64,000 nt of DNA. Origin: Escherichia coli (GTDB taxonomy: Bacteria; Pseudomonadota; Gammaproteobacteria; Enterobacterales; Enterobacteriaceae). This document shows, one piece after another, positions 30,748-52,767 of this stretch. Numbering within the stretch: position 1 is the stretch's first letter; every line of letters starts with the position of its first letter. The translations under genes and the position numbers were made by a program. The DNA lies in assembly GCF_013122565.1 (NCBI RefSeq), contig NZ_CP053258.1, one strand, 5' to 3'. Under the pieces are notes generated by a model. That model was not told the DNA's origin and made no database searches. It worked only from the letters and a program-made list of their open reading frames with translations.

Positions 30748-32031
30748 ATGACAGAAGCGATGAAAATTACCCTCTCTACCCAACCTGCCGACGCGCGCTG
30801 GGGAGAAAAAGCAACTTACAGCATTAATAATGACGGCATTACCCTGCATTTGAACGGGGCAGACGATCTGGGGCTGATCCAGCGTGCGGCGCGCAAAATT
30901 GACGGTCTGGGCATCAAACATGTTCAGCTAAGCGGTGAAGGCTGGGATGTGGATCGCTGCTGGGCATTCTGGCAAGGTTACAAAGCCCCGAAAGGCACGC
31001 GTAAAGTGGAGTGGCCGGATCTGGACGATGCCCAGCGCCAGGAACTGGATAACCGCCTGATGATCATCGACTGGGTGCGTGACACCATCAACGCACCGGC
31101 GGAAGAGCTGGGGCCATCGCAACTGGCACAGCGTGCTGTTGATCTGATCAGCAACGTCGCAGGCGATCGTGTGACTTATCGGATCACCAAAGGTGAAGAT
31201 CTGCGTGATCAAGGTTATATGGGGCTGCACACTGTCGGGCGCGGTTCAGAACGTTCTCCGGTATTGCTGGCGCTGGATTACAACCCAACTGGCGATAAAG
31301 AAGCACCGGTGTACGCGTGCCTGGTTGGTAAAGGCATCACTTTTGATTCCGGCGGCTACAGCATCAAACAGACTGCGTTTATGGACTCGATGAAGTCGGA
31401 CATGGGCGGCGCGGCAACGGTTGCCGGGGCGCTGGCATTTGCCATTACGCGCGGACTGAACAAGCGCGTGAAGCTGTTCCTCTGCTGTGCGGATAACCTG
31501 ATTAGCGGCAATGCGTTCAAGCTGGGCGATATCATCACCTATCGCAACGGTAAAAAAGTTGAAGTGATGAACACTGATGCCGAAGGGCGTCTGGTGCTGG
31601 CCGATGGTCTGATTGATGCCAGTGCGCAGAAACCGGAACTGATCATTGATGCGGCGACCCTCACCGGGGCGGCGAAAACCGCGCTGGGTAATGATTATCA
31701 TGCGCTGTTCAGTTTTGACGATGCGCTGGCCGGTCGCTTGCTGGCGAGTGCCGCGCAGGAGAACGAACCATTCTGGCGTCTGCCGCTGGCGGAATTCCAC
31801 CGCAGCCAGCTGCCGTCTAACTTTGCCGAACTGAACAATACCGGAAGCGCGGCGTACCCGGCAGGCGCGAGCACGGCGGCGGGCTTCCTGTCGCACTTTG
31901 TTGAGAACTATCAGCAAGGCTGGCTGCATATCGACTGCTCGGCGACTTACCGTAAAGCGCCGGTTGAACAGTGGTCTGCGGGTGCTACGGGACTTGGTGT
32001 GCGCACGATTGCTAATCTGTTAACGGCGTAA
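30748..32031 (+). CDS. pepB: Peptidase B (M17 leucyl aminopeptidase family)
   Basis: M17 signature [12 protein letters not shown]; start at internal ATG 30748 (AAGGA Shine-Dalgarno) giving 427 aa. Confidence 0.95.
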
Positions 32032-32039
32032 ACTAATAT

Positions 32040-32150
<111 letters not shown>

Positions 32151-32173: not shown

Positions 32174-32950
32174 ATGTCCGAAACAAAAAACGAACTTGAA
32201 GACCTGCTGGAAAAAGCAGCAACCGAACCGGCTCACCGCCCGGCCTTTTTCCGTACTCTACTGGAATCCACCGTCTGGGTGCCGGGTACGGCGGCGCAGG
32301 GCGAGGCAGTAGTTGAAGATAGCGCGCTTGATTTACAGCACTGGGAAAAAGAAGATGGCACCAGCGTCATTCCTTTTTTTACCTCGTTAGAAGCACTTCA
32401 ACAGGCGGTTGAAGACGAACAGGCATTTGTCGTAATGCCCGTTCGCACATTGTTTGAGATGACCCTTGGTGAAACGCTCTTCCTTAATGCCAAACTGCCA
32501 ACCGGTAAAGAGTTTATGCCGCGTGAAATCAGTTTGTTGATTGGTGAAGAAGGGAGTCCGCTGAGTAGTCAGGAAGTACTGGAAGGCGGTGAATCGCTGA
32601 TATTATCGGAAGTCGCAGAGCCGCCAGCACAAATGATTGATTCACTCACCACCTTATTTAAAACCATTAAGCCAGTGAAGCGTGCTTTTATTTGTTCAAT
32701 TAAAGAGAACGAAGAGGCACAGCCTAATTTACTTATTGGCATTGAAGCCGATGGTGATATCGAAGAAATTATTCAGGCGGCGGGAAGTGTAGCGACCGAT
32801 ACATTACCTGGCGATGAACCAATCGATATTTGTCAGGTGAAAAAAGGGGAAAAAGGAATTAGCCACTTTATTACCGAACATATTGCGCCATTCTATGAAC
32901 GTCGCTGGGGTGGTTTTTTGCGTGACTTTAAACAGAATCGGATAATCTAA
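32174..32950 (+). CDS. sseB: Protein SseB (enhances serine sensitivity)
   Basis: MSETKNELEDLLEKAATEPAHRPAFFRTLLEST...; 258 aa from ATG 32174; adjacent to pepB as in K-12. Confidence 0.88.
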   Translation: MSETKNELEDLLEKAATEPAHRPAFFRTLLESTVWVPGTAAQGEAVVEDSALDLQHWEKEDGTSVIPFFTSLEALQQAVEDEQAFVVMPVRTLFEMTLGETLFLNAKLPTGKEFMPREISLLIGEEGSPLSSQEVLEGGESLILSEVAEPPAQMIDSLTTLFKTIKPVKRAFICSIKENEEAQPNLLIGIEADGDIEEIIQAAGSVATDTLPGDEPIDICQVKKGEKGISHFITEHIAPFYERRWGGFLRDFKQNRII

Positions 32951-32953
32951 AAT

Positions 32954-32975
32954 ATGCCGCCCTAAAGGGCGGCAT
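32954..32975. terminator. Stem-loop after sseB, also positioned as terminator of the minus-strand toxin transcript
   Basis: atgccgccc taaa gggcggcat hairpin; on the minus strand it is followed by AUUUUA. Confidence 0.5.
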
Positions 32976-32981
32976 TCTGGC

Positions 32982-33119
32982 TTACCTGCTGTTCTGAAGG
33001 TTGTTAACCACCAGTAAATTGTCGCCGGAGAGACTCCGGTTATTATTTACCTCGGTTAACAGCGCACCAGAAACAATAAGTACGATACAGAAGCACCGTA
33101 TCTTCATTGTGCGGTCCAT
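32982..33119 (-). CDS. Small hydrophobic peptide, candidate type I toxin (TimP/RyfA-encoded-like), copy 1
   Basis: Minus-strand translation MDRTMKIRCFCIVLIVSGALLTEVNNNRSLSGDNLLVVNNLQNSR (internal Met gives 41 aa from 33107); single predicted TM-like segment; lies at the ryfA locus between sseB and sseA; below the 60-aa cutoff of the ORF track. Confidence 0.45.
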   Translation of the reverse strand: MDRTMKIRCFCIVLIVSGALLTEVNNNRSLSGDNLLVVNNLQNSR

Positions 33120-33330
33120 GCGAAGACCGCATCACGACAGCACCACTGGCGATATTGCCGCGATAGCAAGCGCTGAGACGCGCTTGCTCTAAAGGTCGCG
33201 GAACATCCTTTCCTTAAGCCAGCGCCCGCTTGCGAGACGGCGGAAAGGGCCGCAGTGGATAATACACTAACAGAACAATAATAACTCTCTTTTGCTTGAC
33301 AAAAAGAGAGTTACTGGCGAGTATTGTCTC

Positions 33331-33427
33331 CGCTGAGACGCGCTTGCATTACTACGGTAATACAACCTGCTGGAAAGGCCGCGAACCAAACCGGCAACAA
33401 ATAGCCGCCTGATTTTGGCGGTTTTTT
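33331..33427 (+). ncRNA. Divergent small RNA (TimR/RyfB-like antitoxin candidate), copy 1
   Basis: Sigma70-like promoter TTGACA (33296-33301), 17-bp spacer, GAGTAT (33319-33324); terminator ccgcc...ggcgg plus T6 at 33405-33427; 5-prime 17 nt (33331-33347) are the exact complement of the toxin mRNA leader segment at 33171-33187. Confidence 0.45.
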
Positions 33428-33552
33428 GTTGTTTAAAGAAAGTGAAATTACACGTTTAAGTAATATCTTTTATTGGTTAGTATTTTTAATATTAAGCGAA
33501 AATTGTTTATATTTGTCTGAATTCGGACTAATAAGTCAGGTTATTTTAATAT

Positions 33553-33628
33553 CGAACATATTGCGCCATTCTATGAATGTCGCTGGGGTGGGCTTTTGCG
33601 TGACTTTAAACAGAATCGGATAATCTAA
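33553..33628 (+). pseudogene. Duplicated 3-prime fragment of sseB (unit 2)
   Basis: Near-identical copy of sseB 32875-32950 including the stop codon and followed by a copy of the terminator hairpin; no upstream sseB sequence. Confidence 0.8.
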
Positions 33629-33659
33629 AATATGCCGCCCCAAAGGGCGGCATTCGGGC

Positions 33660-33797
33660 TTACTTGCTGCTCTGACGGTTGTTAACCACCAGTAAATTGT
33701 CGCCGGAGAGACTCCGGTTATTATTTACCTCGGTTAACAGCGCACCAGAAACAATAAGTACGATACAGAAGCACCGTATCTTCATTGTGCGGTCCAT
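33660..33797 (-). CDS. Small hydrophobic peptide, candidate type I toxin, copy 2
   Basis: Same ORF as copy 1 with identical hydrophobic core; C-terminal tail differs (…VVNNRQSSK). Confidence 0.45.
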   Translation of the reverse strand: MDRTMKIRCFCIVLIVSGALLTEVNNNRSLSGDNLLVVNNRQSSK

Positions 33798-34008
33798 GCG
33801 AAGACCGCATCACGACAGCACCACTGGCGATATTGCCGCGATAGCAAGCGCTGTGAAACACCTGCATTTACGGCCACGGAACATCCTTTCCTAAAGCCAG
33901 CGCCCGTTTGCGAGACGGCGGAAAGGGCCGGTGTCGATAATACGCTAAATAAACAATAATTACTCTCTTTTGCTTGACAAAAAGAGAGTTGCTGGCGAAT
34001 ATTGCTCT

Positions 34009-34109
34009 GCTGTGAAGCACCTGCGTTGCTCATGCAACACAAGTCAATCTGCTGGAGAGGCCGCGAACCAAACCGGCAACAAATAACCGCCTGATCTTGG
34101 CGGTTTTTT
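34009..34109 (+). ncRNA. Divergent small RNA (TimR/RyfB-like), copy 2
   Basis: TTGACA (33974-33979), 17-bp spacer, GAATAT (33997-34002); terminator at 34087-34109; 5-prime gctgtgaagcacctgc matches mRNA-leader segment 33850-33865 (two positions form G-U pairs). Confidence 0.45.
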
Positions 34110-34234
34110 GTTGCTTAAAGAAAGTGAATTTACATGTTTAAGTAATATCTTTTACCGGTTAGTATTTTTAATATTGAGCGGGATTTGTTTATATTTGTCT
34201 GAATTCGGACTAATAAGCCAGGTCATTTTAATAT

Positions 34235-34310
34235 CGAACATATTGCGCCATTCTATGAACGTCGCTGGGGTGGTTTTTTGCGTGACTTTAAACAGAATCG
34301 GATAATCTAA
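34235..34310 (+). pseudogene. Duplicated 3-prime fragment of sseB (unit 3)
   Basis: Identical to sseB 32875-32950 including stop; followed by terminator hairpin copy. Confidence 0.8.
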
Positions 34311-34341
34311 AATATGCCGCCCCAAAGGGCGGCATTCGGGC

Positions 34342-34479
34342 TTACCTGCTGTTCTGAAGGTTGTTAACCACCAATAAATTGTTGCCGGAGAGACTCCGGT
34401 TATTATTTACCTCAGTTAACAGCGCACCAGAAACAATAAGTACGATACAGAAGCACCGTATCTTCATTGTGCGGTCCAT
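34342..34479 (-). CDS. Small hydrophobic peptide, candidate type I toxin, copy 3
   Basis: Same ORF; relative to copy 1 two synonymous changes and one D-to-N change (…SLSGNNLLVV…). Confidence 0.45.
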   Translation of the reverse strand: MDRTMKIRCFCIVLIVSGALLTEVNNNRSLSGNNLLVVNNLQNSR

Positions 34480-34693
34480 GCGAAGACCGCATCACGACAG
34501 CACCACTGGCGATATTGCCGCGATAGCAAGCACTGTGGGGTGCCTGTATTTACGGTCATGGAACATCCTTTCCTAAAGCCAGTGCCCGTTTGCGAGACGG
34601 CGAAAAGGGCCGTTAAGAATAATACTCTCATGTTTGAATAATTACTCTGTTTATTATCTTGACATGGCCAGGCATAAAAGAGAGTATTTCAAC

Positions 34694-34793
34694 ACTGTGG
34701 GGTGCCTGCGTTGCTCCGGCAACACAAGCCAACCTGCTGGAAAGGCCGCGAACCAGACCAGCAATAAAAAACCGCCAAATTCGGCGGTTTTTT
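34694..34793 (+). ncRNA. Divergent small RNA (TimR/RyfB-like), copy 3
   Basis: TTGACA (34659-34664), 17-bp spacer, GAGTAT (34682-34687); terminator accgcc...ggcgg plus T6 at 34771-34793; 5-prime cactgtggggtgcctg equals mRNA-leader segment 34531-34546. Confidence 0.45.
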
Positions 34794-34809
34794 ATTGCCT
34801 GTAAAAAGC

Positions 34810-35655
34810 TTATTTCACTGGCTCAACCGGTAAATCTGCCCGCGCGCCCCATTCACTCCATGCGCCGTCGTACAGTTTCACGTTTGGCACATCCAGCGTC
34901 GCGAGTGCCAACAAAACCACGGCTGCTGTTACACCAGAGCCGCAGCTGACGATAATCGGTTTGTCATAGCTGACGCCGCGACCAAAAAATATCGCATCCA
35001 GTTCATCGGTCGTTTTTAGTTCGCCTTCGCGCACCAGTTCCGTCCACGGAACGTTCAATGCACCGGGAATATGTCCGCGACGTAAACCTGGGCGAGGTTC
35101 ATCAACTTCTGCGTTAAAACGTGCAGCCGGGCGGGCATCAACAATTTGCGCCGTATTTTCATGGCTTGCCAATAATACATCGGTTACTTTCACCACGGCT
35201 TCAGGATTAAACGCGGCGTTAAACTCTCCTTCCGGCAGCTCTACTGCACCTTCTTCTAACAACAGATCATCGCGCTGCCAGCCTGCAAGTCCACCCCCCA
35301 GAATCGACACTTTCTCTACACCAAAGGTGCGCAGCATCCACCATGCTCGTGGGGCTGAGAAAAGATTACCTTCGTCATAGACAATCAGGTGCTTATCCTG
35401 GTTAACGCCTAATTCACGCATTGCCACGGCGAACGTTTCCGGGCGCGGCAGCATGTGCGGAAGCGGGGAAGTGTGATCAGAAAGCGCTTCGATATCAAAA
35501 AACACTGCGCCGGGAATATGTCCATTCAGATACTCCTGAGCAACGTTACGATCTTCCTGTCCAGGCGACGCCATGCGGGCATCGATAATCTGAATTTCCG
35601 GGTCATCAATATGTTCGGCGAGCCAGTCGGCTCCTACAAACCATGTCGTGGACAT
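34810..35655 (-). CDS. sseA: 3-mercaptopyruvate sulfurtransferase (rhodanese family)
   Basis: Translation from internal ATG begins MSTTWFVGADWLAEHIDDPEIQIIDARM...; tandem rhodanese domains; 281 aa. Confidence 0.92.
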   Translation of the reverse strand: MSTTWFVGADWLAEHIDDPEIQIIDARMASPGQEDRNVAQEYLNGHIPGAVFFDIEALSDHTSPLPHMLPRPETFAVAMRELGVNQDKHLIVYDEGNLFSAPRAWWMLRTFGVEKVSILGGGLAGWQRDDLLLEEGAVELPEGEFNAAFNPEAVVKVTDVLLASHENTAQIVDARPAARFNAEVDEPRPGLRRGHIPGALNVPWTELVREGELKTTDELDAIFFGRGVSYDKPIIVSCGSGVTAAVVLLALATLDVPNVKLYDGAWSEWGARADLPVEPVK

Positions 35656-52339: not shown

Positions 52340-52558
52340 TTGATGGAATTCAATTGCCCAACCTGCCATAAACCTCTCGAACATCACGGCGAGACGGCTC
52401 ATTGCGTAACTTGCGACAAAGATTTCACCATCCAGGCACTTTGCCCTGACTGCCATCAGCCGCTACAGGTGTTAAAGGCTTGTGGCGCTGTGGACTATTT
52501 CTGCCAACATGGCCACGGATTAATTTCTAAAAAACGCGTTGAGTTTATTATTGCTTAA
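52340..52558 (+). CDS. yfgJ: Small zinc-ribbon protein YfgJ
   Basis: 72 aa with two CxxC…HxxxC pairs (CPTCHKPLEHHGETAHCVTC and CPDCHQPLQVLKACGAVDYFCQHGH); GAGGAG Shine-Dalgarno at 52331-52336. Confidence 0.85.
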   Translation: MMEFNCPTCHKPLEHHGETAHCVTCDKDFTIQALCPDCHQPLQVLKACGAVDYFCQHGHGLISKKRVEFIIA

Positions 52559-52767
52559 TATCATCTGAATGTATGGTTTTATCATTTGTATTTAATATAT
52601 AAATGATAAAGCCATCTCTTATTGGTTAAATCACTAGTACATGTGAGTGAAATCATTTTGATAAATTTTTAGGAATATATTTAGTTTTTCTGACGTGCCT
52701 TCCTGAATGTTCTGGCATAGAATATTAGAGCTTATTCATCAAATTATCATTGCCACAGGGAAAGTGC

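What the first reader, a model, noticed from the sequence alone, without database searches (positions are those of the whole stretch)
33428..33552. AT-rich ~125-bp junction spacer present after units 1 and 2 but not unit 3
The sequence between each sRNA terminator and the next sseB-tail copy (33428-33552 and 34110-34234) is about 75 percent A+T and has no counterpart at the end of the array, where the unit 3 terminator abuts the sseA stop. It is either the relic of an ancestral insertion that seeded the amplification or a protein-binding region. It also carries a TTG-start 65-aa reading frame that I regard as unlikely to be translated.
Basis: seen in the sequence. Interest (0 to 1): 0.3.

Follow-up and report, generated by a model that had tools for sequence, protein, structure and literature searches.

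The report
Linker DNA between tandem timP-timR units
The AT-rich 125-bp stretch is the linker that joins neighbouring copies of a small toxin-antitoxin unit between sseB and sseA; it is the same DNA that E. coli K-12 carries and that was once catalogued as the putative small RNA "IS128", and nothing found here suggests it has a function of its own.

Summary
Two copies of a ~114-125 bp stretch (33428-33552 and 34110-34234) are 77.6% and 72.0% A+T and 90% alike. They lie between units 1/2 and 2/3 of a three-unit array, and nothing like them follows unit 3.

The array units are timP/ryfA-TimR type I toxin-antitoxin modules. The spacer is not new: it matches Rfam RF00125 "IS128" at 203 and 225 bits (gathering score 80). 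It occurs in 2241 of 5426 complete E. coli genomes, always at this locus, including K-12.

K-12 is a two-unit array that lost 357 bp, so its spacer is also an inter-unit junction. True one-unit loci (EDL933, ATCC 25922) and the other species read lack it.

It resembles nothing in sseA, sseB, plasmids or phages, so its source is unknown. It diverges faster than most of its flanks, its 65-aa ORF is broken in other strains, and it folds no better than shuffles. Its predicted curvature is unremarkable, and it tolerates an IS1 insertion and a truncation.

Best reading: a passively carried junction relic created once and then copied or lost by recombination between units. It is a known element of low interest.

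The parts
32174..32950 (+). sseB, complete gene. Its last 84 nt (32867-32950) are the part repeated in units 2 and 3.
   Evidence: ORF. RefSeq annotation of the matching loci. Repeat family D1.
32949..33253 (-). Unit 1 timP/ryfA mRNA (pairing box class 1, ...AGACGCGCTTGC...). The TimP ORF is 32982-33119.
   Evidence: Rfam RF00126 at 314 bits. ORF. Box class.
33296..33430 (+). Unit 1 TimR/RyfB-like antitoxin sRNA gene. TTGACA at 33296-33301, transcript from about 33332, pairing box class 1. Internal-type terminator with stem 33403-33423 and a T-tail to 33430. The transcript start is inferred, not mapped.
   Evidence: Sequence. Terminator scan. Box identical to the timP box on the same DNA strand, so the two RNAs are complementary. 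About 100-nt divergent RyfB RNAs were seen in S. dysenteriae (PMC5333039).
33428..33552 (.). Spacer copy 1 (core 33431-33544), 77.6% A+T. Contains the palindrome TATTTGTCTGAATTCGGACTAATA at 33510-33533.
   Evidence: Rfam RF00125 IS128 on the minus strand at 33385-33595, 203 bits.
33545..33628 (+). sseB-tail copy of unit 2, a pseudogene fragment.
   Evidence: The equivalent fragments are annotated as partial sseB in RefSeq records.
33627..33931 (-). Unit 2 timP/ryfA mRNA (box class 2, ...TGAAACACCTGC...). The TimP ORF is 33660-33797.
   Evidence: RF00126 at 316 bits..
33974..34112 (+). Unit 2 TimR-like sRNA gene. Promoter TTGACA-18-AATATT at 33974-34003, box class 2, internal-type terminator stem 34085-34105.
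34110..34234 (.). Spacer copy 2 (core 34113-34226), 72.0% A+T.
   Evidence: RF00125 on the minus strand at 34067-34277, 225 bits.
34227..34310 (+). sseB-tail copy of unit 3.
34309..34613 (-). Unit 3 timP/ryfA mRNA (box class 3, ...TGGGGTGCCTG...). The TimP ORF is 34342-34479.
   Evidence: RF00126 at 324 bits..
34659..34797 (+). Unit 3 TimR-like sRNA gene with the sseA-proximal terminator type (CCGCCAAATTCGGCGG, about 34772-34787). No spacer follows it.
   Evidence: The terminator is only 74-76% identical to the internal terminators.
34810..35655 (-). sseA (3-mercaptopyruvate sulfurtransferase), convergent with TimR of unit 3.
   Evidence: ORF. RefSeq annotation of the matching loci.

Best explanation
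The spacer is the non-coding linker of a polymorphic tandem array of timP-TimR (ryfA/ryfB) type I toxin-antitoxin units that lies between sseB and sseA.

**Origin (inferred).** A single ancestral event in the E. coli lineage joined the end of one unit, just past the TimR terminator, to a point 84 nt before the sseB stop codon. About 115 nt of AT-rich DNA of unknown source was trapped at that joint.

**Spread (shown by comparison).** The module 'internal terminator + spacer + sseB tail' has since been carried along passively. Homologous recombination between units copies it (2 to 3 units), shuffles which specificity class sits on either side of it, or removes it. Collapse to one unit leaves the sseA-type terminator and no spacer.

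**Position.** In the array it lies in the gap between two convergent terminators: TimR of unit n reading rightward, and timP of unit n+1 reading leftward.

**Function (inferred, not tested experimentally).** It most likely has no sequence-specific function. It is the same DNA as the K-12 'IS128' candidate sRNA.

**Why IS128 was predicted in K-12 (inferred from the sequence).** A 357-bp deletion in K-12 placed an orphan timP promoter next to the spacer. A promoter-plus-terminator search would therefore call a 209-nt minus-strand 'gene' running across the spacer to the bidirectional terminator. The window has no such deletion, so it has no such adjacent promoter.
For: **Identity**
- Rfam RF00125 hits at 203 and 225 bits, against a gathering score of 80.
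- The K-12 hit scores 261 bits at the homologous place.

**Distribution**
- The spacer is in 2241 of 5426 complete E. coli genomes. It is always chromosomal, once or at most twice per genome, and never at another locus.
- It was absent from every locus read that holds a single TimR gene, namely EDL933 and ATCC 25922.
- It is absent from Escherichia sp. E1V33 and E. coli SCPM-O-B-8794, and from Citrobacter, Superficieibacter, Yersinia, Rahnella, Erwinia and Salmonella.

**One junction, many arrays**
- The same junction links units in the order 1-2-3 (window, MEW), 1-2 (ETEC1738) and 2-1 (MMC-J-0085).
- The internal terminator type always precedes the spacer, and the sseA type is always last.

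**K-12**
- K-12 equals a two-unit array minus 357 bp. It keeps 14 nt of the sseB tail and the timP promoter of the lost unit.
- 1687 genomes share that exact deletion junction.

**No sign of constraint**
- The two window copies are 90% identical, and copies in different strains 87-97%. The flanking repeat parts are 94-98% identical, and sseB/sseA are 97-99% identical between strains.
- The spacer carries 1-bp indels.
- The ORF is broken in K-12, in ETEC1738 and in one MEW copy, and is shifted into the sseB frame in the other MEW copy.
- IS1 sits inside the palindrome in strain 361. The spacer is truncated after about 108 nt in 241 genomes.

**No RNA structure, no marked curvature**
- Folding z-scores are -0.38 and -0.62.
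- Predicted curvature is not exceptional.

**Literature**
- Strand-specific northern blots found no IS128 RNA in K-12. Only the opposite-strand RNA of about 95-100 nt was seen (PMC3175480).
- IS128 is patchily distributed among E. coli and Shigella (PMC3318445).
Against: - The source of the spacer DNA is unexplained. A simple tandem duplication would leave sseA-derived sequence at the joint, and none is detectable. The founding event is therefore inferred, not reconstructed.
- Two blocks change little in the 10 copies read: GTTTAAGTAATATCTTTTA, and TATATTTGTCTGAATTCGGACT with its palindrome. Ten related sequences are too few to show constraint, but this is compatible with a small functional site.
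- The linker has survived in 41% of genomes. In most of them it survives in a decayed array, where further deletion might have been expected.
- A weak sigma-70-like match (TTAATA-16-TATATT, 9 of 12) is conserved in both copies on the plus strand.
- No expression or protein-binding data were examined for a strain with full units.
Confidence: 0.7

Rival explanations
1. The spacer is the body of a real minus-strand small RNA, IS128. It would be expressed only under particular conditions, either by read-through of the timP terminator of the next unit or from an undetected promoter. It would overlap the TimR terminator in antisense.
For: - A covariance-model match to RF00125 well above the gathering score.
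- The internal terminator is scored as a terminator on both strands.
- The original report detected 90-95 nt bands with a double-stranded probe, as cited in PMC3175480.
Against: - Strand-specific probes detected no IS128 RNA in K-12, and the signal belonged to the opposite strand (PMC3175480).
- Overexpressing IS128 gave no change in any of the phenotypes scored (biofilm formation, swimming, swarming, fimbriae) (PMC4606813).
- In the window, the 5' quarter of the model aligns to the sseB tail. The K-12 orphan timP promoter that would drive such an RNA is not adjacent.
- A strong terminator (9-bp stem, 7 G-C pairs) stands upstream on the minus strand.
- The spacer folds no better than shuffles.
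Confidence: 0.08
2. The spacer is a binding or nucleation site for a nucleoid-associated protein (H-NS, Fis or IHF). The protein would silence or insulate neighbouring toxin-antitoxin units, and selection would keep the spacer for that reason.
For: - It is 72-78% A+T in a 48% A+T background, among the most AT-rich 125-bp stretches of the window.
- It contains a near-perfect palindrome and two little-changed blocks.
- It persists in 41% of complete E. coli genomes.
Against: - Predicted curvature is only slightly above the window mean, and its peaks lie at the edges. This came from my own wedge-model script with parameters recalled from memory, so it is indicative only.
- One-unit loci carry a complete timP-TimR pair without the spacer.
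- IS1 insertion and truncation are tolerated in natural isolates.
- No binding data were examined.
Confidence: 0.12
3. The spacer is the flank of a foreign timP-TimR unit. A unit from another lineage recombined into sseB on one side and joined illegitimately on the other, bringing about 115 nt of the donor's DNA downstream of TimR. This is an origin hypothesis and is compatible with the spacer having no function.
For: - The three pairing-box classes strung together in the array each exist as the sole allele in other lineages: class 1 in E. whittamii, class 2 in ATCC 25922, class 3 in EDL933, E1V33 and SCPM.
- The internal terminator is only 74-76% identical to the sseA-proximal one.
- The spacer composition is atypical for its surroundings.
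Against: - No donor was found. A spacer profile gave no hit downstream of TimR in Escherichia sp. E1V33, E. coli SCPM-O-B-8794, two Citrobacter, Superficieibacter, Yersinia, Rahnella or Erwinia.
- The Salmonella locus gave only E = 2.
- E. albertii, E. fergusonii and Shigella were not sampled. E. whittamii was covered for only 215 bp.
Confidence: 0.2
4. The spacer is a decayed mobile element (MITE or IS remnant) whose insertion provided the homology or the break that started the amplification.
For: It is AT-rich DNA unrelated to its surroundings, with an internal palindrome.
Against: - There is never a copy at another locus in 5426 genomes.
- Nothing significant was found in 72,556 plasmid records. 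The single strong hit is a 4.9-Mb record, presumably a chromosome filed as a plasmid. Nothing was found in 50,697 phage records or in IMG/VR.
- There are no terminal inverted repeats and no target-site duplication at its borders.
- It has no conserved coding capacity.
Confidence: 0.03
5. The spacer encodes the 65-aa TTG-start protein.
For: The frame is open in both window copies.
Against: - The frame is reduced to 6 aa in K-12, 37 aa in ETEC1738 and 31 aa in one MEW copy. In the other MEW copy it is shifted into the sseB frame by a 1-bp indel.
- It runs out of frame through the sseB tail.
Confidence: 0.01

Closest known systems
IS128 RNA (Rfam RF00125), a candidate sRNA predicted in the sseA-sseB intergenic region of E. 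coli K-12
   Same: It is the same DNA. The covariance model matches both window copies at 203 and 225 bits and K-12 at 261 bits. Nucleotide identity to K-12 is 87-93%. The position is also the same: directly after the internal TimR-type terminator.
   Different: In K-12 a 357-bp deletion has put the timP promoter of the lost unit next to the spacer, which is why a 209-nt minus-strand 'gene' could be predicted there. In the window the spacer is followed instead by an sseB-tail fragment and a complete timP gene with its own strong terminator. The RNA itself was not confirmed with strand-specific probes (PMC3175480).
Sibling ryfA1/ryfB1 - ryfA2/ryfB2 locus of Shigella dysenteriae (Fris et al. 2017, PMC5333039) and the timP-TimR type I toxin-antitoxin system (Andresen et al. 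2020, PMC7667032)
   Same: The units are tandem, each with a roughly 300-nt timP/ryfA mRNA and a divergent sRNA of about 100 nt whose 5' part is complementary to a variable box in the mRNA leader. Several versions of the variable box are known. The window units fit this on every point tested.
   Different: The window has three units, not two. In the passages I read, those papers do not discuss the DNA between the units, which is the subject of this finding.
Tandem arrays of other chromosomal type I toxin-antitoxin loci in E. coli, such as the long direct repeats ldrA-ldrB-ldrC with their rdl RNAs (from my own knowledge, not checked here)
   Same: Head-to-tail repeats of a small toxin mRNA plus its antitoxin sRNA, with copy number varying between strains.
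   Different: The families are unrelated in sequence. I did not compare how their units are joined.
Novel joints of tandem duplications that carry filler DNA (a general category, from my own knowledge)
   Same: The spacer sits exactly at the unit-to-unit joint. It is present at every internal joint and absent from both outer ends of the array.
   Different: A plain duplication joint consists only of the two endpoint sequences. Here about 115 nt derive from neither endpoint, and the event is old enough for the copies to differ by 3-13%.

Membership tests
Rfam RF00125 (IS128 RNA) | Covariance-model score at or above the family's gathering score (80 bits) | tested here: met
   203 bits at 33385-33595 (minus strand) and 225 bits at 34067-34277 (minus strand), full model length.
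Rfam RF00125 (IS128 RNA) | A promoter placed so as to start the minus-strand RNA at the model's 5' end, as at the K-12 deletion junction | tested here: not met
   In K-12 the model's 5' end lies on the retained timP promoter and first transcript bases. In the window those model positions align to the sseB tail, with non-standard pairs marked in the one alignment printed, that of copy 2. No minus-strand promoter-like site was found next to the spacer.
Rfam RF00125 (IS128 RNA) | Expression as a discrete RNA from the annotated strand | not testable with these tools
   Literature only. No IS128 RNA was seen with strand-specific probes in K-12 (PMC3175480).
Rfam RF00125 (IS128 RNA) | A stable or conserved secondary structure of the spacer part | tested here: not met
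   Minimum free energy of -7.6 kcal/mol on the minus strand, z = -0.38 against 200 shuffles.
Inter-unit joint of a tandem timP-TimR array | Present at each internal unit boundary and absent from the outer ends | tested here: met
   Window. The same holds in MEW, ETEC1738 and MMC-J-0085.
Inter-unit joint of a tandem timP-TimR array | Flanking units are complete timP-TimR modules: RF00126 match, TimP ORF, divergent sRNA with a complementary box, terminators | tested here: met
   Three RF00126 hits at 314-324 bits. 45-aa TimP ORFs. Matching boxes within each unit. Terminators.
Inter-unit joint of a tandem timP-TimR array | Joint sequence derivable from the two endpoints of the one-unit locus (a plain duplication joint) | tested here: not met
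   The right side is the sseB tail, as expected. The spacer itself has no similarity beyond shuffles to the sseA 3' end, sseB, unit 3 or the rest of the window.
Mobile-element remnant (IS or MITE) | Copies at unrelated loci or on plasmids or phages | tested here: not met
Mobile-element remnant (IS or MITE) | Terminal inverted repeats and target-site duplication | tested here: not met
   Only an internal palindrome and short chance-level arms were found.
Nucleoid-protein binding region | High A+T content | tested here: met
   72-78% A+T.
Nucleoid-protein binding region | Marked intrinsic curvature | tested here: inconclusive
   My own wedge-model script gave a mean of 22-25 degrees against a window mean of 17. 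The peaks reach only the 97.5-98.8th percentile and lie at the edges. The parameters were recalled from memory.
Nucleoid-protein binding region | Demonstrated protein occupancy | not testable with these tools
   No ChIP or footprint data were consulted.

The most novel reading that the evidence does not exclude
The linker is kept by selection as a small functional site, centred on the nearly invariant block TATATTTGTCTGAATTCGGACT with its palindrome. It could bind a protein that insulates or silences adjacent toxin units. Alternatively it could favour the recombination that expands, contracts and reshuffles the array, so that this stretch of DNA governs the copy-number dynamics of a chromosomal toxin-antitoxin array.
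Probability: 0.08. Interest if true: 0.45.

Novelty: already known. Interest (0 to 1): 0.13.

Why it matters
It matters little as a discovery, because the DNA is a catalogued K-12 element and tandem ryfA copies are already described.

The useful by-product is an explanation for a doubtful database entry. 'IS128' is best read as the linker of a decayed timP-TimR array, next to an orphaned timP promoter, rather than as an sRNA gene. Annotators should not transfer the IS128 label to arrays like this one.

The locus also shows how a chromosomal type I toxin-antitoxin array behaves.
- Units of different pairing specificity are shuffled around a constant joint.
- The toxin gene of the sseA-proximal unit has been deleted at least twice independently, while its antitoxin sRNA gene was kept.

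Tried and rejected
- **Spacer as a diverged copy of local DNA.** I tested the sseA 3' end, sseB upstream of the tail, unit 3 and the rest of the window. Local alignments scored no better than shuffles. An apparent match I saw by eye (ATATTTGTC, GTCAGG in sseB) did not survive this test.
- **Mobile-element or plasmid/phage origin.** blastn with 11-nt words against plasmids and phages gave only chance-level hits, plus one mislabelled chromosome. An exact 21-mer scan of IMG/VR gave 0 hits.
- **Paralogues elsewhere in E. coli.** None were found.
- **Homologue in other genera.** My one scan of genome contigs used a ryfA stem pattern (GCGGTCNNNGCANNGACCGCAC) that proved too degenerate. It still yielded 15 enterobacterial ryfA loci, none of which has the spacer. 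E. albertii, E. fergusonii and Shigella were therefore not sampled.
- **Salmonella.** A locus reached through SseB has a single unit, then about 60 nt and a REP-like element (judged by eye) before sseA. The spacer profile gave E = 2, which is not significant.
- **RNA structure.** None beyond shuffles on either strand.
- **Curvature.** Unremarkable.
- **Counting full junctions with a 39-nt query.** This failed because 32 of the 39 nt are shared with the K-12 deletion type. I replaced it by counting extra sseB tails.

Full report
**1. What is in the sequence**

sseB (32174-32950, plus strand) and sseA (34810-35655, minus strand) converge on a 1.86-kb interval. This interval holds three head-to-tail units of about 680 bp (repeat families D1-D3, start-to-start spacing 678-685).

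Each unit has four parts.
- It begins with the last 84 nt of sseB: the real gene end in unit 1, and copies at 33545 and 34227.
- It contains a minus-strand RNA that matches Rfam ryfA (RF00126) over its full length at 314-324 bits.
- That RNA holds a conserved 45-codon frame, MDRTMKIRCFCIVLIV.... [quoted passage not shown]
- Divergent from it is a plus-strand small gene with a TTGACA promoter and an intrinsic terminator.

About 17 nt at the start of the small RNA are the same as a box in the timP leader on the same DNA strand, so the two RNAs are complementary.

This is the timP-TimR (ryfA/ryfB) type I toxin-antitoxin arrangement. It has been described in Salmonella and S. dysenteriae (PMC7667032; PMC5333039).

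**2. The observation**

The stretches 33428-33552 and 34110-34234 run from the T-tail of the TimR-type terminator to the next sseB-tail copy.
- They are 77.6% and 72.0% A+T, against 47.7% for the window. Only one other place in 64 kb is as AT-rich at this scale.
- The two copies are 90% identical.
- Their 21-nt core occurs only there.
- After unit 3 a different version of the terminator, 74-76% identical to the internal ones, is followed within about 12 nt by the sseA stop codon. Nothing there resembles the spacer.

The description is correct.

**3. It is a known piece of DNA**

On the minus strand both copies match Rfam RF00125, 'IS128 RNA', at 203 and 225 bits against a gathering score of 80.

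K-12 has the same sequence (87-93% identity) between its single timP gene and sseA, scoring 261 bits.

The K-12 locus is not a one-unit locus, however. After the first TimR-type gene, its internal terminator and the spacer come three things: 14 nt of the sseB tail, the very 5' end of a second timP transcript with its promoter region, and a second TimR-type gene that abuts sseA.

Aligned to the two-unit array of strain ETEC1738, K-12 differs by one 357-bp deletion. That deletion corresponds to window 33558-33914. So in K-12 too the spacer marks a unit junction.

This also explains the IS128 prediction. The deletion leaves a timP promoter reading on the minus strand into the spacer, towards a terminator that is scored as such on both strands. 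A promoter-plus-terminator search would call that a 209-nt gene.

- Strand-specific northern blots later found no such RNA. Only the opposite-strand RNA of about 95-100 nt was seen (PMC3175480). By position, that RNA is the first TimR-type RNA.
- Overexpressing IS128 gave no phenotype in a screen (PMC4606813).

**4. Distribution**

In 5426 complete E. coli genomes:

| Feature | Genomes or places |
|---|---|
| Spacer present (always chromosomal, never at another locus) | 2241 genomes |
| Two spacers in one genome | 6 genomes |
| Exact K-12 deletion junction | 1687 genomes |
| Second deletion type (below) | 241 genomes |
| Extra sseB tails, meaning extra complete units | 160 places, at most 3 tails per genome |

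In the second deletion type the spacer is cut after about 108 nt and joined directly to a TimR-type gene of a further box class (L129, L130).

One-unit loci such as EDL933 and ATCC 25922 lack the spacer. In a 40-row sample down the ranking of all genomes, most records, O25b:H4-ST131 among them, spanned only 834-841 bp where the window spans 2201 bp.

The spacer is also absent from these other species' loci:
- Escherichia sp. E1V33 and E. coli SCPM-O-B-8794;
- two Citrobacter and Superficieibacter;
- Yersinia, Rahnella and Erwinia;
- a Salmonella locus.

This agrees with the patchy phyletic pattern reported for IS128 (PMC3318445).

**5. One joint, shuffled contents**

The pairing boxes fall into classes.

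| Class | Box | Sole allele in |
|---|---|---|
| 1 | AGACGCGCTTGC | E. whittamii |
| 2 | TGAAaCACCTGC | ATCC 25922 |
| 3 | TGGGGTGCCTG | EDL933, E1V33, SCPM |

- Unit order is 1-2-3 in the window and MEW, 1-2 in ETEC1738, and 2-1 in MMC-J-0085.
- In every array the same module links the units: internal terminator, spacer, sseB tail. The sseA-type terminator is always last.
- Several versions of the variable box were already reported (PMC5333039).

The simplest account is one founding junction, followed by homologous exchange between units. That exchange copies, deletes or re-sorts what lies on either side of the junction. This is inference from comparison. The founding event itself was not reconstructed.

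**6. Where the spacer DNA came from**

This is unresolved.
- It has no similarity beyond shuffles to the sseA 3' end, which is what a plain duplication joint would carry. The same holds for sseB, unit 3 and the rest of the window.
- It has no relatives in plasmids, phages or IMG/VR, and no second locus in any E. coli genome.
- It has no terminal repeats.
- A foreign flank brought in with a unit from another lineage remains possible, but no donor was found.
- My one scan of the species-representative genomes was partly wasted on a pattern that was too degenerate. The closest outgroups were therefore not sampled.

**7. Function**

Nothing points to one.
- The 65-aa frame is open only in this window's copies.
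- The spacer folds no better than shuffles on either strand.
- Predicted curvature is only slightly above average (my own script, indicative only).
- The spacer diverges faster than the neighbouring sseB tail, timP body and terminator, and has 1-bp indels.
- It tolerates an IS1 insertion in its palindrome (L131) and truncation.
- timP-TimR units exist without it in one-unit loci.
- Where it sits, between the terminators of two convergent transcription units, little transcription is expected.

Points that keep a small door open:
- two blocks that hardly vary in the ten copies read;
- a weak promoter-like match conserved in both copies;
- its persistence in 41% of genomes.

**8. Verdict**

The 'relic at the junction' reading is broadly right, but 'seeded the amplification' is not shown. 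The element is already known as the K-12 IS128 region, so the finding is ordinary.

I put about 0.7 on 'passive linker without a function of its own'. The identity with IS128 and the junction position are close to certain.

Noticed in passing
L001 (E. coli K-12) 2235-2830: K-12's only timP has a class-2 pairing box, but the TimR-type gene next to it is class 1. The class-2 TimR-type gene that matches it lies beyond the spacer, next to sseA. So K-12 carries one apparently orphan antitoxin-type sRNA, and a toxin separated from its best-matching repressor by about 320 bp.
   Followed up: partly
L129 1175-1480 and L130 1175-1480 (E. coli SCU-301 and strain 222): Here the spacer is truncated after about 108 nt. 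It is joined directly to a TimR-type gene with a further box (GACGAGATACACTTGC) and no timP partner. 241 complete genomes share this junction. Together with the K-12 type, this is a second independent loss of the sseA-proximal toxin gene with the sRNA gene kept.
   Followed up: partly
L131 1290-2075 (E. coli strain 361): An IS1A element is inserted inside the spacer palindrome, flanked by a short direct repeat (ctgaattcgg).
   Followed up: partly
L132 (E. coli MMC-J-0085): A two-unit array in the order class 2 then class 1, the reverse of the window, MEW and ETEC1738, but with the same linker between the units.
   Followed up: partly
L127 3828-3872 and L128 2616-2660 (metagenome contigs; SseB 94% identical to the window's): sseB and sseA are only 43 bp apart with a REP-like sequence between them, so this organism has no timP-TimR unit at the locus. 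The organism was not identified.
   Followed up: no
L070 3262-3430 (Escherichia whittamii): About 175 extra bp lie between the sseB stop codon and the ryfA 3' end. By eye it looks like an ERIC/IRU repeat (…AGGAGCTTACATAAGTAAGTGACTGGGGTGAGCG…). That identification is from memory and was not tested.
   Followed up: no
window 52514-52708: The only other stretch of the window as AT-rich as the spacer (at least 74% A+T in 125-bp windows). It has a predicted curvature peak at the 99.9th percentile. Not examined.
   Followed up: no
window 32026-32116: Upstream of sseB there are sub-threshold Rfam matches to naRNA4 (40.3 bits against a gathering score of 59.5) and ES036 (28.9 against 37.6). I read both as REP-derived families (from memory), so I take this to be a REP/BIME element between pepB and sseB.
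   Followed up: no
window 32700-34900: No complete E. coli genome matches the array better than 96.3% (strain MEW, from an ivory gull). Only 6 of 5426 genomes have two spacers. The window may come from Shigella or from a poorly sampled E. coli lineage.
   Followed up: no
P0001 and P0002 (SseB-like proteins of 279 aa, 91-92% identical): These are SseB variants 21 residues longer than usual. One of them (P0002) is labelled E. coli by NCBI; the other carries no name. They may be products of rearrangements at the array end of the gene.
   Followed up: no
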